DNA of 64,000 nt, from positions 81,406,001-81,470,000 of the forward strand of contig OZ024743.1 of the NCBI GenBank assembly GCA_964016885.1, read 5' to 3'. The stretch's first letter is position 1. Each line of letters opens with the position of its first letter. Source of the DNA: Eledone cirrhosa. Lineage: Eukaryota. Below, in pieces: positions 6,748-21,865 of this stretch. The position numbers were made by a program, and so were the translations under genes. The notes below the pieces were generated by a model. That model was not told where the DNA came from. It saw only the letters and a program-made list of their open reading frames with translations, and did not search any database.

Positions 6748-6957
6748 AACGGAGAAGTTGTGGTAAGGAACCAGATGGACCATAACGCACCAGAGTACTC
6801 AATACTTAGGGTAGTAGAGGAGAGGGAAATAGGAAAAAGTAAGACCCCGACGGCAGAGCTCAAGCCGTTTCGACGGCTATTTCTGGACATGGTTTGAGTC
6901 CAGAAATAGCCGTCGAAACGGCTTGAGCTCTGCCGTCGGGGTCTTACTTTTTCCTAT
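6748..6957 (-). mobile_element. Family A PLE-derived fold-back mini-element
   Basis: Perfect 60-bp inverted arms (6829-6888 / 6898-6957), 9-nt spacer, ~80-bp one-sided tail; same sequence as the termini of the PLE at 9190-10977; flanked by (TA)n. Confidence 0.85.
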
Positions 6958-9900
6958 ATATATATATATATATATATATATATATATATATATATATATA
7001 TATATATATATTTGTGTGTGTGTGTATGTATGTGTGTATGTGTGCGTGTGTTTATAGTTTTAATTTTTATACTTTCAAGATCAATAATAAAGTATCATGC
7101 TATGATAGATTCTCGCTCACACACACCCACACAACACACATCTACACGCACACACACATCCACACATCCACACATACGCCCACACCCACACCCACACACC
7201 TACGCATCCACACCCACACATCCACACACACGCCCACACATCCACACACACACATACACACACACATACACACACACTTCTTGTAAACAGTCCTAACTGA
7301 ATCACTAAAAATTAGTCAATTTGAAATTTGAAAATGTAGCAGCCACAGTAGACATAACTACAATAATAGTTGACAGCGATAAATACTGGTGAAATAAAAT
7401 CGGTTAAATTCCATCTGGAAAGGGAGAAAATGGGCAATGACACATATAAGTGTTGGATTGTGAAGGGTGTATATATATATATATATATATATATATATAT
7501 ATAGTATATATATATATATATACATCGTTGTTTTGTTGAATACATTTATTTGTAGGAAGGTTATGAGACAACAAACTTTTAGGTGCGGCTTATATATATA
7601 TATGTATATATATATATTTATATATATGTGAGTGTGTTTGTGTGTGTGTGTACATATATACATCACTGTATATATTTATATATATATATATATATTAGAA
7701 AGTGAGGTTTTTTCACAAATATAATATATATATATATTATATATATATATATATATATATATATATATATATATATATATATATATATATATATATATAT
7801 ATAATATATATTATATATATATATATATAAAGTTATGTGAATTATTTGATCAACCTACACTTTCTTCACTTAAATAATATATATCTATGTTTATATATAT
7901 ATATACATATATATATATATATGATGACATACTGTGTGCCTCTTGCTCATAATAATTTCTATACTTTTCATTTATATATATATGTATATATATATATATA
8001 TATATATATATATATATATATATATATATATATATATATATATATATATATATATATATATATGTGTGTGTGTGTGTGTGTGTGTGTATTATTCAAATGA
8101 AGAAACTTGGTTGAGCAAACAATCCACCGACTTTATATATATATATATATATATATATACACACACACTCACACATATATATATGCTTGCATATATGTAT
8201 ATATATTTGTGTGTGTGTGTGTGTGTGTGAGTGTGTAGGTGTGTTCGTTTGTGTGTGTCTGTGAGTGTGTGTGTGTGTGTGTATGTATGTGTGTTAGAAA
8301 TGGCTGATGATAGAAGAGGGTAAATAAAGAGAATAAGAAGAAAGACCATAATTTGTATGGCAAGCTGGAGCAGCTGTTATGGAGAATATACCGATTGAAA
8401 TGTTTAAAAAGAGAAAATTGTGTGAAACTTATTTCTTCAAAGAGTTTTATATTAATGTGTGACTGTATAAGAAAGTTACCTCCTGTATATTTGTGGTGCG
8501 AAGCATGAATTTGACTTCTCTCTTTTTGTCTAGAACTTCTTTACACAAGCAAGTATATATATTCATATATTGCATAAATATATTCACATTCAGAAGATTT
8601 TGCTTAATCCACTTATTATACACAATGATGTATAGTATATAGTTGATATATGTATGTAAACATATACATATTAACTCTTTGCTATTATTATTTTTACTAT
8701 ATATATATATATATATATATATATATATATATATATATATATATATATATATTCATATATCTATGTGTGTGTTTGTGTGTGATTGTGTGTGTGTCTGTGT
8801 CTGTGTCTGTCTGTATGTATATATATATATATATATATACATACATTGTTGAAATGAACTAACAAATCACAGGAGGCAATTGTACACAGTTATATTAGGT
8901 TCACGCATATATATATATATGCGTGTGTGTGTGTGTATATATATATATATATATATATATATATATATATATATATATATATATATACATTATTCATTTA
9001 TTACTTTAAATCGAGACAGGCAAACCATATTATTTTAAATTAGTATTTTCCAACCTAGCTAACTTGGTCATTTGCAATTGGCACATATGTATAGTTGTAT
9101 CAGTGTGTATCCCTCTCATATATTCAATTATATATATATATATATATATATATATATATATATATATATATATATATATATATATATATAACAAAGGAAT
9201 TGTGGTAAGGAACCAAATGGACCATAACGCACAAGAGTACTCAATACTTATGTTAGTAGTGTGGGAAATAGGAAAAAAATGACCCCGACGGCAGAGCTCA
9301 AGCCGTTTAGTCGACTATTTTAGGACTAAATTAGAATTTTTAGTCTGGTGAATAAATAGCCGAACTTTTCAAGGGGGTACTTTCTTATATGGGAAGATTG
9401 TAGTTGTCAAGAGGATTAGTTAAAATTTGTTGTAAACACAAATAAGTCTATCATGGCATTTGGTGGGAGGTAGGGGTGGCTGAACTTGCCTGTAGAGCAA
9501 TAGGAGGGTGTGGTGCGGTCAAGCGTTGAAAGTGATATGTATACATCAGATTCTAAGGATAGTGTATGAAGTGGAGGAGGGAGGTTATAGAATAGGTAAA
9601 TCGAAAGAGAGTAGGGGACAGTAAAAGATACTAGAAATAAATAAAAATATATATAAAATTAGATAGTGAGAAATGAATTAAAAAAATCACAATGCTATCT
9701 TACAATTACAGGTTAATAAGTTGAGAATAGATAAAACTTGTAGAAAATACAAAACTGATACAAACTTAAAGGGGTTTTAACACGTCTGCTATAAGTAGTT
9801 AGTAAAACGTAATCGGCCAATTCTATCGGGTGGGGAGGCTCGATGGGCTGCATCGGGGTGGGCGAAAGGGGAAAAACAGACGAGAAAGAAAACAGGGGGT

Positions 9901-10094
9901 GGAAGGAAGTGATAGGAAGGGAAAGGGGGAAGAAGAAGACAAAGAGGAATAGAAAAGAGATACATCTTCCTATGTAAGCTGGGGTTTCCCCTAACTTATT
10001 CGGCAAGTGTGTGTGTGTGTGGGGGGGGGGGGGGGGGTCAGCCCTTGTCTACCCACCCGGGTCGTTATAAAGTTTGAGGGCGAGGTAAGTCCCA

Positions 10095-10560
10095 CGTAAT
10101 CTGTGTTTGCATGCGGTTACCCGTTCTTGTTTAGGAGTTGGTCCTTTGAAAACAACATTTGTAATGTTTCCTCCGAGCATAAGTTACACGGACGGCGTCC
10201 TCCCGTGTAAGAGTTAGCTCTGGACAGTAAGCTCCAAGTGAGATTGTAGGTTATATTATTATCTTGGAGGTCCCAGATGTGGCCCGAAAGTGTAGTGGCA
10301 TGTCGCCGGACAGGGTTCGGAAAGTATGTCGGTGTTGGTAGAGCCGGGTCTTGAAGTCACACGCGGTTAATCCTATATAAGCTTTGTTGGAGGTGTCCGT
10401 CTTCACCTTGCACTGGTAGATCAAGTTACGTTCTCGGCATGTGTTGTTGAGGGAGCACGTAGATCTATTAGGGCAGTTACACCTCCTGGTCGGCTCTCCT
10501 CTGATGTCTAGGTTATTTCTTCCATAGGGGTTGAGTTTTTTGTTGTTTGAAGAGACGATG
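10095..10560 (-). pseudogene. PLE GIY-YIG endonuclease remnant (frameshifted)
   Basis: Manual translation: IVSSNNKKLN...CNCPNRSTCSLNNTCRERNLIYQCKV...AYIGLTACDFKTRLYQH / TTLSGHIWDLQ...CNLCSEE...LLNK. Confidence 0.9.
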
Positions 10561-10866
10561 TTTTGTGCGAAGTTATGTGTGGTGCTGTAGGAGGGTTTGA
10601 TGGTGTTTTTGTATCTTTTACTGTCCCCTACTCTCTTTCGATTTATCTATTCTATAACCTCCCTCCCCCACTTCATACACTATCCTTAGAATCTGATGTA
10701 TACATATCACTTTCAACGCTTGGCCGCTCCACTCACTCCCCTATTGTTCTACAGGCAAGTTCAGCCACCCCTACCTCCCACCAAATGCCATGATAGACTT
10801 ATTTGTGTTTACAACAAATGTTAACCAATCCTCTTGACAACTACAATCTTCCCATATAAGGAAGTA

Positions 10867-10961
10867 CCCCCTTGAAAATTTCGGCTATTTATTCACCAGA
10901 CTAAAAATTCTAATTTAGTCCTTAAATAGCCGTCGAAACGGCTTGAGCTCTGCCGTCGGGG
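10867..10961 (+). ncRNA. Type I hammerhead in family A pLTR (U3-A8 core, long stem II); sense copy at 9283-9376 minus
   Basis: cccc-TTGAAAA-ttt-cggctattt[gactaaa/tttagtc hairpin]aaatagccg-tc-GAAA-cggc(ttgagctct)gccg-TC-gggg. Confidence 0.7.
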
Positions 10962-20316: not shown

Positions 20317-20507
20317 TAGGAAAAGAGTCAGAACCTCGACGGCAGAGCTGAAGCCGTTTCGACAGCTATTTATTTCCAGAAATAGCTGTTGAAACGGCTT
20401 GAGCTCTGCCGTCGGGCTTCTGACTCTTTTCCTATTACCCACTCTACTACCCAAAATATCGAGTACTCTGGTGCGTTATGGTCCACCTGGTTCCTTACCA
20501 CAACTTC
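20317..20507 (+). mobile_element. Family A fold-back mini-element
   Basis: Inverted arms centred near 20373; tail ends ...ccttaccacaacttc. Confidence 0.85.
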
Positions 20508-20550
20508 CTGATGATTTCTCACGAATGAAACAGTTCTAGCCCTGTAGAAG
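20504..20550 (+). ncRNA. Type I hammerhead, family C (U10.1-U11.1)
   Basis: cttc-CTGATGA-t-ttc(tcac)gaa-t-GAAA-cag(ttctagcc)ctg-TA-gaag. Confidence 0.75.
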
Positions 20551-20914
20551 CTTTTCTATATTAAATATATATATATATATATATATATATATATATATAT
20601 ATATATATATATAGTAATAATAATAAATTTGAAGACTAAAATCCAAAGAGGGCTCGATAAGGATAAATATATATCAAATATATAAGAACCGTAGAGCAAA
20701 TATTTATTAAAATAACAGATTAAAGTTTAAGCAAAGAATCGCTGATTTCACCCTTAACGGGATCTTCTGAAACTAACAAAGTCAATCTGTGAACGCAGAA
20801 GTTTATATTTCAAAAAACGTTGCAATCGAAGGAAGACAGGAAGACGATACTTTGGTTCGTGGAAACGTTCCCTGGCAAAGAAGGGGACAAAACGAATATA
20901 ATACGTCATTATTT

Positions 20915-21555
20915 GGAGCGGTGAATTGGCAGTATTGGTAGAGGGTCGGACGCTATGCTTTGACGTATAGAGTTACGGCCCTTGCCATTCCGAGTTCAAA
21001 TCCCGCCAAGGTTAACTTTGCCTTTCATCCTTACGGGGTCGATAAAATAAAGTACCAGTAATGCACTGGGTACTTGCTGGCCTTGTGCCTAACGTAGAAA
21101 CAATTATTATCAGGGCGGTGGATTGGTAGTATCGGTAGAAGGTCGGATGCCATGCTTGGCAGCATAGCGTTACGGCCCTTTATGATCGGAGTTCAAACCC
21201 CGCCGAGGTTAACTTTGACTTTCATCCTTACGGGGTCGATAAAATAAAGCACCAGTAATATACTGGGGTCGATTTAATTGATTTTCCCGTCCCACAAAAT
21301 TACTGGCCTTGTGCTTATACTAGAAATCATTATTATTATTATTATTATTGCTAGGACTGTGGATTGGCAGTATCGGTAGGGGGTCGGACGCCATGCTTTG
21401 CCGCAAAGAGTTACGGCCGTTTATGGGCTGAGTTCAAACCCCGCCAAGTTTAACTTTGCCTTTCATCCCTACTGGGTCGACAAAATAAAGTAACAGTAAT
21501 ACACTGGGATACTTTATGGCCTTGTGCCAAAAGTAGAAACAATTATTATTATTAT
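20915..21555 (+). mobile_element. Head-to-tail trimer of tRNA-derived Meta-like SINEs
   Basis: Units at ~20915, ~21112 and ~21352, each with tggcagtatcggtag (A box), gagttcaaaYccc (B box), gcctttcatccttacggggtcgataaaataaagtaccag core and (ATT)n end. Confidence 0.9.
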
Positions 21556-21672
21556 TGCCATTAAGGTTTGTTTTTTTCTTAGTATTTATTTCTGTTTTGT
21601 AGTTTTATTCTCGTATTTTCTTCGTATTTGCTTTTTTAAATTTGTTGAAATTCACTTGTATATATATATATA

Positions 21673-21865
21673 TAGGAACAAGTATGACCCCGGCGGCAGA
21701 GCTCAAGCCGTTTCGACGGCTAATTCTGTTCAGAATTAGCCGTCGAAAGGGCTTGAGCTCTGCCGTCGGGGTCATACTAGTTCCTATTACCCACTCTACT
21801 ACCCTAAGTATCGAGTACTTTGGTGCGTTATGGTCCATCTGGTTCCTTACCACATTTCCTTCGTT
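21673..21865 (+). mobile_element. Family A fold-back mini-element
   Basis: Inverted arms centred on aattctg-tt-cagaatt, tail to ...catttccttcgtt, (TA)n flanks. Confidence 0.85.

What the first reader, a model, noticed from the sequence alone, without database searches (positions are those of the whole stretch)
6748..21865. Palindromic mini-retroelements that fold back inside a hammerhead's stem II
Seen: four ~200-bp elements (6748, 16312, 20317, 21673), all next to (TA)n, share one plan: a long arm with a tail, a turn, and a short inverted arm ending at or near ...ttcctat(TA)n. Compared with the long PLE at 9190-10977, the turn always lies within ribozyme stem II (cggctattt/aaatagccg or its inner gact/agtc helix). 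The 5' half of the core (TTGAAAA) is thereby replaced by a mirror copy of the 3' half. The turn sequence differs in each copy, and the two arms of a copy share private variants (gagtcaga in 20317, gtatga in 21673). Established: PLEs carry HHRs in pLTRs and often have inverted 5' pLTRs. Inference: the ribozyme hairpin lets the nascent cDNA snap back and self-prime second-strand synthesis, so palindromes arise independently at each insertion and could be a source of hairpin dsRNA.
Basis: partly seen in the sequence, partly recalled or inferred. Interest (0 to 1): 0.85.

Follow-up and report, generated by a model that had tools for sequence, protein, structure and literature searches.

The report
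Twin-copied Penelope stubs record RNA starts
These four short mirror-image repeats are stubs of a Penelope-like jumping gene that has left over 14,000 such copies in this genome, and they are likely made when two separate DNA copies run off the start of the same RNA and are joined head to head, which would explain how this class of element builds its inverted ends.

Summary
The layout is real and genome-wide: 33,123 exact tail matches and 14,647 palindromes turning at stem II. The parent is a 3,118-bp Hydra-type Penelope-like element. The stem II fold-back mechanism mostly fails. In 89 young copies, 101 of 154 arm ends fall in a 12-nt window on the 3' strand of stem II, none in the 36 nt upstream, and none keeps the native loop. 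42 of 63 junctions cannot be a fold-back copy of the tail arm, and in long copies the tail-less arm is often kilobases longer. The edge sits on an initiator-like motif with a TATA-like motif at -30 and often carries an extra C/G, as a copied cap would. A minor class has both arms ending exactly at the predicted ribozyme cut. A second family has the same kind of edge outside its ribozyme-like motif. Best reading: both ends of a cut (TA)n tract prime separate cDNAs at the two sites flanking the tail; both run off the RNA's 5' end and are end-joined. The layout is published; I did not find this mechanism in print. The scan reached the two-cDNA reading before on other DNA. No RNA data were available.

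The parts
6748..6888 (-). Mini A: tail-bearing arm (tail, stem I 3' strand, stem III, GAAA, stem II 3' strand); 5' end at +2
   Evidence: (L061)
6889..6896 (.). Mini A: 8-nt non-native spacer; its last base (G, 6896) abuts +1 of the short arm, as a copied cap would
6897..6957 (+). Mini A: tail-less inverted arm, +1 to +61, ending TTCCTAT in (TA)n
6679..6716 (+).
9190..10611 (-). Long copy: tail-bearing arm with 5'-truncated ORF end (CxCx5C linker, YIG motif at 10251-10612), 3' UTR and pLTR; its ribozyme GAAA box is mutated
10612..10977 (+). Long copy: 367-nt inverted tail-less arm, 95% identical to the other arm
10862..10975 (+). Complete type I hammerhead motif, U3-A8 variant: TTGAAAA at 10872, TATA-like TATTTAT in the stem II 5' strand, inferred RNA start (+1) at A10917, GAAA, predicted cut after C10957 (+41)
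   Evidence: fold; motifs; cleavage and start inferred
16312..16441 (-). Mini B: tail-bearing arm ending exactly at +1
16442..16448 (.). Mini B: insert CAGAAAT, a short templated (snap-back type) copy starting at +5
   Evidence: read; same class
16449..16510 (+). Mini B: tail-less inverted arm starting at +1
20317..20371 (-). Mini C: tail-less inverted arm, inner end at +8
20375..20509 (+). Mini C: tail-bearing arm from +3; tail fused at 20508 to another repeat that carries CTGATGA...GAAAC
21673..21728 (-). Mini D: tail-less inverted arm, inner end at +5
   Evidence: L001
21731..21865 (+). Mini D: tail-bearing arm from +5, after a 2-nt spacer
   Evidence: L001

Best explanation
[quoted passage not shown] Steps: (1) Shown: the parent unit is 3,118 bp with one RT/GIY-YIG-type ORF; arm outer ends are fixed at +61 and +138, both at a UAU that can pair with a TA end. 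(2) Inferred, in line with PMC11167929: the protein cuts both target strands and starts reverse transcription at these two internal sites. (3) Shown: inner ends pile up at +1..+7 with a hard upstream edge. Inferred: +1 is the capped start of the pLTR-driven mRNA, which lies inside stem II, so this mRNA holds only the 3' half of the ribozyme at its front. Priming at the front copy of the tail gives a 60/140-nt mini; priming at a downstream pLTR gives long copies. (4) Inferred: a minority of templates had self-cleaved, giving arms that both stop at +42. (5) Shown: junctions are blunt (19), 1-nt overlap (15), longer overlap (5) or carry inserts (24) of 63. Inferred: host end-joining, with short snap-back synthesis from the run-off ends.
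For: Edge: 101 of 154 arm ends in -4..+7, 0 in -40..-5 (89 position-ordered young copies); mixed-age sample 51 of 93 tail arms and 56 of 74 tail-less arms in -7..+7. Two cDNAs: tail-less arm holds bases absent from the tail arm in 25 of 63 minis, and 17 more have loops under 3 nt; tail-less arm longer in 8 of 21 long pairs, e.g. -2804 vs -506 and -2166 vs -135. RNA end: YYANWYY-type motif at +1 in 58 of 60 intact pLTRs and a TATA-like motif at -29 to -31 in 59 of 60 (consensus recalled). Cap-like base at +1 in 8 of 11 informative arms vs 9 of 26 at +2..+7 (one-sided p 0.04). Genome counts with both arms at +1: C..G 230, T..A 4. Internal control: 378 palindromes turn near the predicted cut; by my reading 23 of the first 50 have both arms ending exactly at +42 with a non-native spacer, 10 of them a single A/T. 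Second family: 18 of 54 arm ends within -5..+10 of TC[A]GATC, with CATAAAA at about -32, 43 nt upstream of its ribozyme-like core. Same RNA: arms share subfamily; 8 of 89 tail arms stop at +55 to +67, near the second priming site. Literature: both strands cut and extended, two RT start sites flanking the tail (PMC11167929); promoter in the pLTR (PMC2377424); extra G from the cap at L1 5' junctions (PMC11702581).
Against: No RNA evidence for the start site, the cap or ribozyme cleavage. The cap test is small, and G..C at +1 is also common (131), though by my reading nearly all of the first 50 are templated GAATT/GAAAT copies or a subfamily with native TCAGTCC. The initiator count is partly built into my search pattern, the TATA-like pattern was fitted to the data, and that sequence is also the stem II 5' strand, so pairing alone could conserve it. 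The edge is not single: 1,321 palindromes have both arms reaching -3 or further. 21 of 63 junctions remain compatible with fold-back. Deletion at the palindrome centre after insertion could create some asymmetry. Matching subfamilies in both arms fit fold-back equally well. The young sample is one subfamily from the first 62 Mb of one contig. In PMC11167929 no reads began or ended at the anole element's cut site.
Confidence: 0.7

Rival explanations
1. Run-off then self-priming: one cDNA reaches the RNA's 5' end, snaps back on 1-3 bases and copies itself to make the whole short arm (close to the self-priming proposal of PMC3846280).
For: Short snap-back inserts starting at +4, +5 or +7 are common. 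21 of 63 junctions are compatible. Arms match by subfamily.
Against: 42 of 63 junctions do not fit. Many listed copies carry a snap-back piece on both arms, which needs two run-off ends. Long pairs with the longer tail-less arm. It does not explain the exact stop at +61. It may still account for a minority of copies.
Confidence: 0.12
2. The edge is a polymerase stop at a folded or protein-bound ribozyme, not an RNA end; two cDNAs are still joined.
For: The edge lies inside stem II; the ribozyme was protein-assisted in PMC11167929; a second softer edge at -3 to -5.
Against: The extra C at +1 but A/T at +42; initiator- and TATA-like spacing in two unrelated families; the second family's edge is outside its ribozyme-like motif.
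Confidence: 0.08
3. One reading: the cDNA copies into the 5' strand of stem II, pairs with its own copy of the 3' strand and self-primes the short arm.
For: Position of the turn; a few copies keep the native loop (L059, possibly L018; 2 of the first 50).
Against: 0 of 64 young minis keep the loop; 0 of 154 arm ends in -40..-5; asymmetric and loop-less junctions; second family.
Confidence: 0.05
4. A MITE- or SINE-like palindrome amplified as a unit, or longer palindromes trimmed at the centre after insertion.
For: High copy number; long perfect palindromes are unstable (general knowledge).
Against: 56 distinct junctions in 63; minis occur in every subfamily alongside long copies with the same diagnostics; trimming would not give a one-sided edge, a cap-like base or a class ending exactly at the cut site.
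Confidence: 0.05

Closest known systems
Insertions of endonuclease-bearing Penelope-like elements with inverted 5'-truncated pLTR and one-sided tail (PMC8557442, PMC3846280, PMC2377424)
   Same: Partial tandems, inverted arm, tail at one end, palindrome at the inverted junction, hammerhead in the pLTR, (TA)n targets.
   Different: Most copies here are minimal stubs with a fixed inner edge. The tail is 77 nt, not 30-40. PMC3846280 read such palindromes as self-priming, possibly on an antisense template; the junctions here point to two sense-templated cDNAs.
Hydra clade of PLEs (PMC8557442, section 11)
   Same: About 3 kb, single ORF, C-terminal GIY-YIG, DKT, RW(R), CxCX5C linker, CxxC and CxH near the end, no CCHH, (TA)n insertion.
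   Different: RWR instead of RWK; U3-A8 or CUGAGAA core instead of a canonical one; no tree was built.
Poseidon from Anolis, in vitro (PMC11167929)
   Same: Two internal RT start sites that bound the tail; both DNA strands cut and extended; predicted dimer.
   Different: Different clade. The parts I read do not derive the inverted arm from two cDNAs, do not map 5' run-off ends, and found no reads at the ribozyme cut.
L1 twin priming and cap-derived extra G (PMC11702581; original model recalled)
   Same: Second target end primes on the same RNA; cDNAs joined by end-joining; extra G at full-length 5' ends.
   Different: In L1 (recalled) the two cDNAs cover different parts of the RNA. Here they mostly overlap, both reach the 5' end and the second priming site is fixed, giving an inverted duplication.
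Non-LTR retrozymes (bioRxiv 10.64898/2026.07.22.740005; PMC7229834 listing only)
   Same: Protein-less, PLE-related, type I hammerhead sequence.
   Different: Retrozymes are head-to-tail tandems of units with a whole ribozyme. These are head-to-head stubs with half a ribozyme and no shared unit boundary.

Membership tests
EN+ Penelope-like element | Single ORF with RT and C-terminal GIY-YIG endonuclease | tested here: met
   L181 ORF of 719 aa from ATG with FDIESYY, YRDD and YIG motifs read by eye. No Pfam, NCBIfam or PDB hit. Atlas neighbours at 0.96-0.99 include clusters with GIY-YIG and RVT_1 families.
EN+ Penelope-like element | Partial tandem forming pLTRs | tested here: met
   L181 repeats the pLTR at 3,118 bp.
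EN+ Penelope-like element | Inverted 5'-truncated copy and a tail at one end | tested here: met
   Window copies, 21 long pairs, 65 of 89 young copies with an inverted arm within 330 nt.
Hydra clade | DKT, RWK, CxCX5C linker, CxxC and CxH, no CCHH, (TA)n target | tested here: met
   SDKTG, RLRWR, CNCPDRSIC, CNLC, CKH against the description; RWR differs by one residue.
Hydra clade | Phylogenetic placement with Hydra RTs | not tested
   No reference set in hand.
Type I hammerhead ribozyme | Core boxes and three stems in the parent pLTR | tested here: met
   Fold; 5' box TTGAGAA 37, CTGAGAA 12, TTGAAAA 7, other 4 of 60; U3-A8 variant described in PMC4209133. Minimum-energy folds of some variants differ.
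Type I hammerhead ribozyme | Self-cleavage at GUC | not testable with these tools
   Only indirect: insertions ending exactly at +42.
Type I hammerhead ribozyme | Whole core present in the mini elements | tested here: not met
   5' box and stem II 5' strand absent in all four.
MITE | One fixed internal sequence and symmetric ends shared by copies | tested here: not met
   56 distinct junctions of 63; one-sided tail.
MITE | Target-site duplication | tested here: inconclusive
   Cannot be read inside (TA)n.
Non-LTR retrozyme | Head-to-tail tandem units each with a full type I ribozyme | tested here: not met
   Head-to-head stubs.
L1-type twin priming | Two cDNAs from different, non-overlapping parts of one RNA | tested here: not met
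   Most arms overlap; only a few copies (L242, L255, L266, L267, L276) are nearly non-overlapping. It works like twin priming but is not the L1 product.

The most novel reading that the evidence does not exclude
Penelope-like elements integrate by a two-ended reaction in which a protein dimer cuts both strands of (TA)n and copies one RNA twice from two fixed sites. The 14,000+ stubs are then a fossil map of the RNA's 5' ends: a capped start placed inside the hammerhead, which keeps the front of the mRNA from self-cutting, and an uncapped end at the ribozyme cut, which would be in vivo evidence that a PLE hammerhead cleaves in the germ line.
Probability: 0.5. Interest if true: 0.75.

Novelty: new variant of a known kind. 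Interest (0 to 1): 0.6.

Why it matters
How PLEs form their inverted repeats and one-sided tail is stated as unsolved in PMC8557442 and PMC11167929, and the role of their hammerhead is open. These stubs give thousands of natural reaction products with nucleotide-level ends. They favour two cDNAs over self-priming, predict an exact RNA start and an exact cleavage product, and suggest why short copies outnumber long ones. Each stub can also fold into a 54-60 bp hairpin if transcribed, but no RNA evidence exists for that here.

Tried and rejected
Rfam scan of the window (E up to 1): only simple-repeat and hairpin matches among the 150 of 279 rows shown, no hammerhead family among them. Pfam, NCBIfam and PDB sequence searches gave nothing useful for the ORF. 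No RNA holder was listed, so start site, cleavage and small RNAs were not examined. Laying four contig runs showed summed depth rising about 30-fold across the edge in two runs of one study and loose (TA)n ends at +61 and about +141; these runs may be the assembly's own study and contig depth is not copy number, so this is only a check against assembly artefact. One contig of another organism (depth 1.9) lay on both strands from +11; too weak to use. No downstream-promoter motif was evident by eye. Hand fixes before counts: L212 dropped (internal pLTR of a tandem), L274's inverted arm removed (belongs to a neighbour), L206 set to +5 and left out of the 63-junction counts; L262 skipped in the shared-change count. 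One search miscalled several copies with internal deletions, and miscalled some second-family ends as short (e.g. L316); these were left uncorrected. 13 of 74 copies had no readable segment. No arm tree was built; the diagnostic-segment test replaced it. L117 has arms of two subfamily types, a possible two-template copy, but it is one clear case. Literature searches that did not show the two-cDNA, cap or cut-site reading for PLEs; the library lacks most subscription papers, and I saw no supplements.
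Full report
Coordinates. Positions along the element are counted from the A of TTT[A]GTCCAG (+1; window 10917), on the 3' strand of the inner helix of stem II. The predicted ribozyme cut follows +41, the tail-less arm ends at +61, the tail at +138 and the ORF starts at +232.

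Observation. Inner ends (tail arm / tail-less arm) are +2/+1 for 6748, +1/+1 for 16312, +3/+8 for 20317 and +5/+5 for 21673. The window lies in a 3.0-Gb genome. A 34-nt tail pattern has 33,123 exact matches, the mirror pattern around stem II 14,647 and an intact-core pattern 4,720 arms; reversed controls gave 0. These are lower bounds.

Identity. L181 holds a full unit of 3,118 bp between two pLTRs with a 719-aa ORF. Profile searches missed it. Its motifs match the description of the Hydra clade in PMC8557442 section 11, and Atlas neighbours include GIY-YIG and RT clusters. The pLTR folds as a type I hammerhead with a long stem II; the U3-A8 core is described for PLEs in PMC4209133.

Where the arms end. 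I sampled copies by genome order of a tail pattern, which is blind to the turn. In the youngest subfamily (90 copies, 89 after dropping one internal pLTR) 101 of 154 arm ends fall in -4..+7; the three 12-nt windows upstream hold 0, 0 and 0, and the four downstream hold 12, 7, 12 and 5. A mixed-age sample of 93 agrees, with 3 tail arms and 1 tail-less arm in -59..-8. The two arms carry the same subfamily segment in 46 of 61 readable copies against a shuffled mean of 9.9, so the palindrome is rebuilt at each insertion. The shared variants are subfamily marks: 38 young minis had 0 shared and 12 arm-specific changes (low power).

Why it is not stem II fold-back. Fold-back across the hairpin would keep the native loop. 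None of 64 young minis does. In the class with both arms at -3 or beyond (1,321 copies), 2 of the first 50 hold the whole native loop and about 3 more hold most of it, by my reading. A fold-back copy cannot hold bases that its template lacks, yet the tail-less arm does so in 25 of 63 minis (by 10 nt or more in 11 of 64), and 17 more have loops under 3 nt; 21 are compatible with fold-back. Among 21 long inverted pairs the tail-less arm is the longer in 8 (L181, 185, 186, 188, 190, 192, 194, 199), by more than 2 kb in L186 and L194; L181 is a tandem and less telling. Snap-back does occur, but as short templated pieces from the run-off end, often on both arms of one copy, which itself needs two ends.

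Why the edge looks like an RNA start. The base after a +1 end is the complement of a cap G in 8 of 11 informative arms, against 9 of 26 at +2..+7 (p 0.04). With both arms at +1, C..G occurs 230 times, G..C 131 times and T..A 4 times. By my reading about 14 of the first 50 C..G copies have no templated explanation, against 1 of the first 50 G..C copies. PMC11702581 reports the same extra G at full-length L1 junctions. The site reads TTAGTCC or TCAGTCC in 58 of 60 intact pLTRs with a TATA-like word at -29 to -31 in 59. The consensus is recalled, the patterns were partly fitted, and the TATA-like word is also the stem II 5' strand; such a motif pair occurs once elsewhere in the unit. PLE promoters lie in the pLTR (PMC2377424; PMC3846280).

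Two internal controls. First, 3 of 89 young copies have both arms ending exactly at +42, the first base after the predicted cut. Genome-wide 378 palindromes turn near there; of the first 50, by my reading, 23 end at +42 on both arms with a non-native spacer (10 a single A or T), 10 are blunt and ambiguous, 10 use a CGG overlap and 7 are other. Run-off at an uncapped cleavage product fits this, and a 1-nt loop cannot be a fold-back. Second, an unrelated PLE family with a CxxxxCxxC linker (window 18015-18360; 1,125 pattern matches; ORF) has the same plan. 18 of 54 of its arm ends lie within -5..+10 of TC[A]GATC, 43 nt upstream of a ribozyme-like core, with CATAAAA at about -32. The edge therefore follows promoter-like sequence, not stem II.

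Mechanism. PMC11167929 showed in vitro that a PLE protein cuts and extends both target strands and starts at two RNA sites bounding the tail. Here both outer ends sit at a UAU that can pair with a TA end. I infer that each target end primes one cDNA on the same RNA, that the tail cDNA usually displaces the other (8 of 89 tail arms stop at +55 to +67), that both run off the 5' end, and that the ends are trimmed, sometimes extended by snap-back, and joined. An mRNA starting at +1 offers its front copy of the tail only 60-140 nt of template, which would explain why stubs outnumber long copies (8 of 89 tail arms pass -60). None of these steps was observed on RNA or protein.

What is known. My nine searches did not show the two-cDNA, cap or cut-site reading for PLEs. 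What I saw of each paper: PMC11167929 parts 1-2 of 4; PMC4209133 parts 1-2 of 4; PMC8557442 passages and section 11; PMC3846280, PMC2377424 and PMC11702581 passages; bioRxiv 10.64898/2026.07.22.740005 part 1 of 5; PMC7229834 search listing only; no supplements, which may bear on clade motifs and on RT start mapping. Earlier notes of this scan on the same genome, read after my analysis, reached the two-cDNA reading; they are not independent support.

Verdict. A real, very abundant class of PLE stubs with a known layout. The fold-back-in-stem-II reading is mostly wrong. The junctions favour a two-ended, run-off mechanism and predict exact RNA ends. Interest 0.6.

Noticed in passing
window 18015-18360 and around 27374: A second PLE family (RT plus C-terminal GIY-YIG with a CxxxxCxxC linker, unit about 4.9 kb in L321) with the same tail-plus-inverted-arm plan. 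Its pLTR has a hammerhead-like motif with GCAA in place of GAAA and a palindromic ACCGGT; arm ends pile 43 nt upstream of it.
   Followed up: partly
window 20508-20565; similar flanks in L012, L015, L149; related sequence near 41650-41800: A third repeat carrying CTGATGA...GAAAC and ending in (TA)n, fused to the tail of mini C at a shared TTCCT. Possibly another PLE end.
   Followed up: no
window 20614-20660 and 21902-21935; L005, L016, L050, L317 flanks: A recurring short repeat end (...ggattttagtcttcaaatttattattattac) beside (TA)n tracts, often next to this family's insertions; in L005 it follows the tail directly.
   Followed up: no
window 6080-6140 and 6535-6590: An inverted pair of a different repeat between (TTC)n and (GAA)n tracts.
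   Followed up: no
window 20920-21560: Three head-to-tail copies of a repeat with tRNA-like boxes (GGTCGGA...GAGTTCAAATCC), probably a SINE (label recalled).
   Followed up: no
window 19880-20045: Three to four tandem copies of a unit of about 49 bp.
   Followed up: no
L117 (G000:C1:13299099-13301494): One mini whose two arms carry the diagnostic segments of two different subfamilies.
   Followed up: partly
L094, L098, L037: A subfamily variant with native TCAGT at the inferred start instead of TTAGT.
   Followed up: partly
L181 at unit position -433; L182-L200: The L181 full-length unit lacks about 430 bp of 3' UTR that other long copies have.
   Followed up: no
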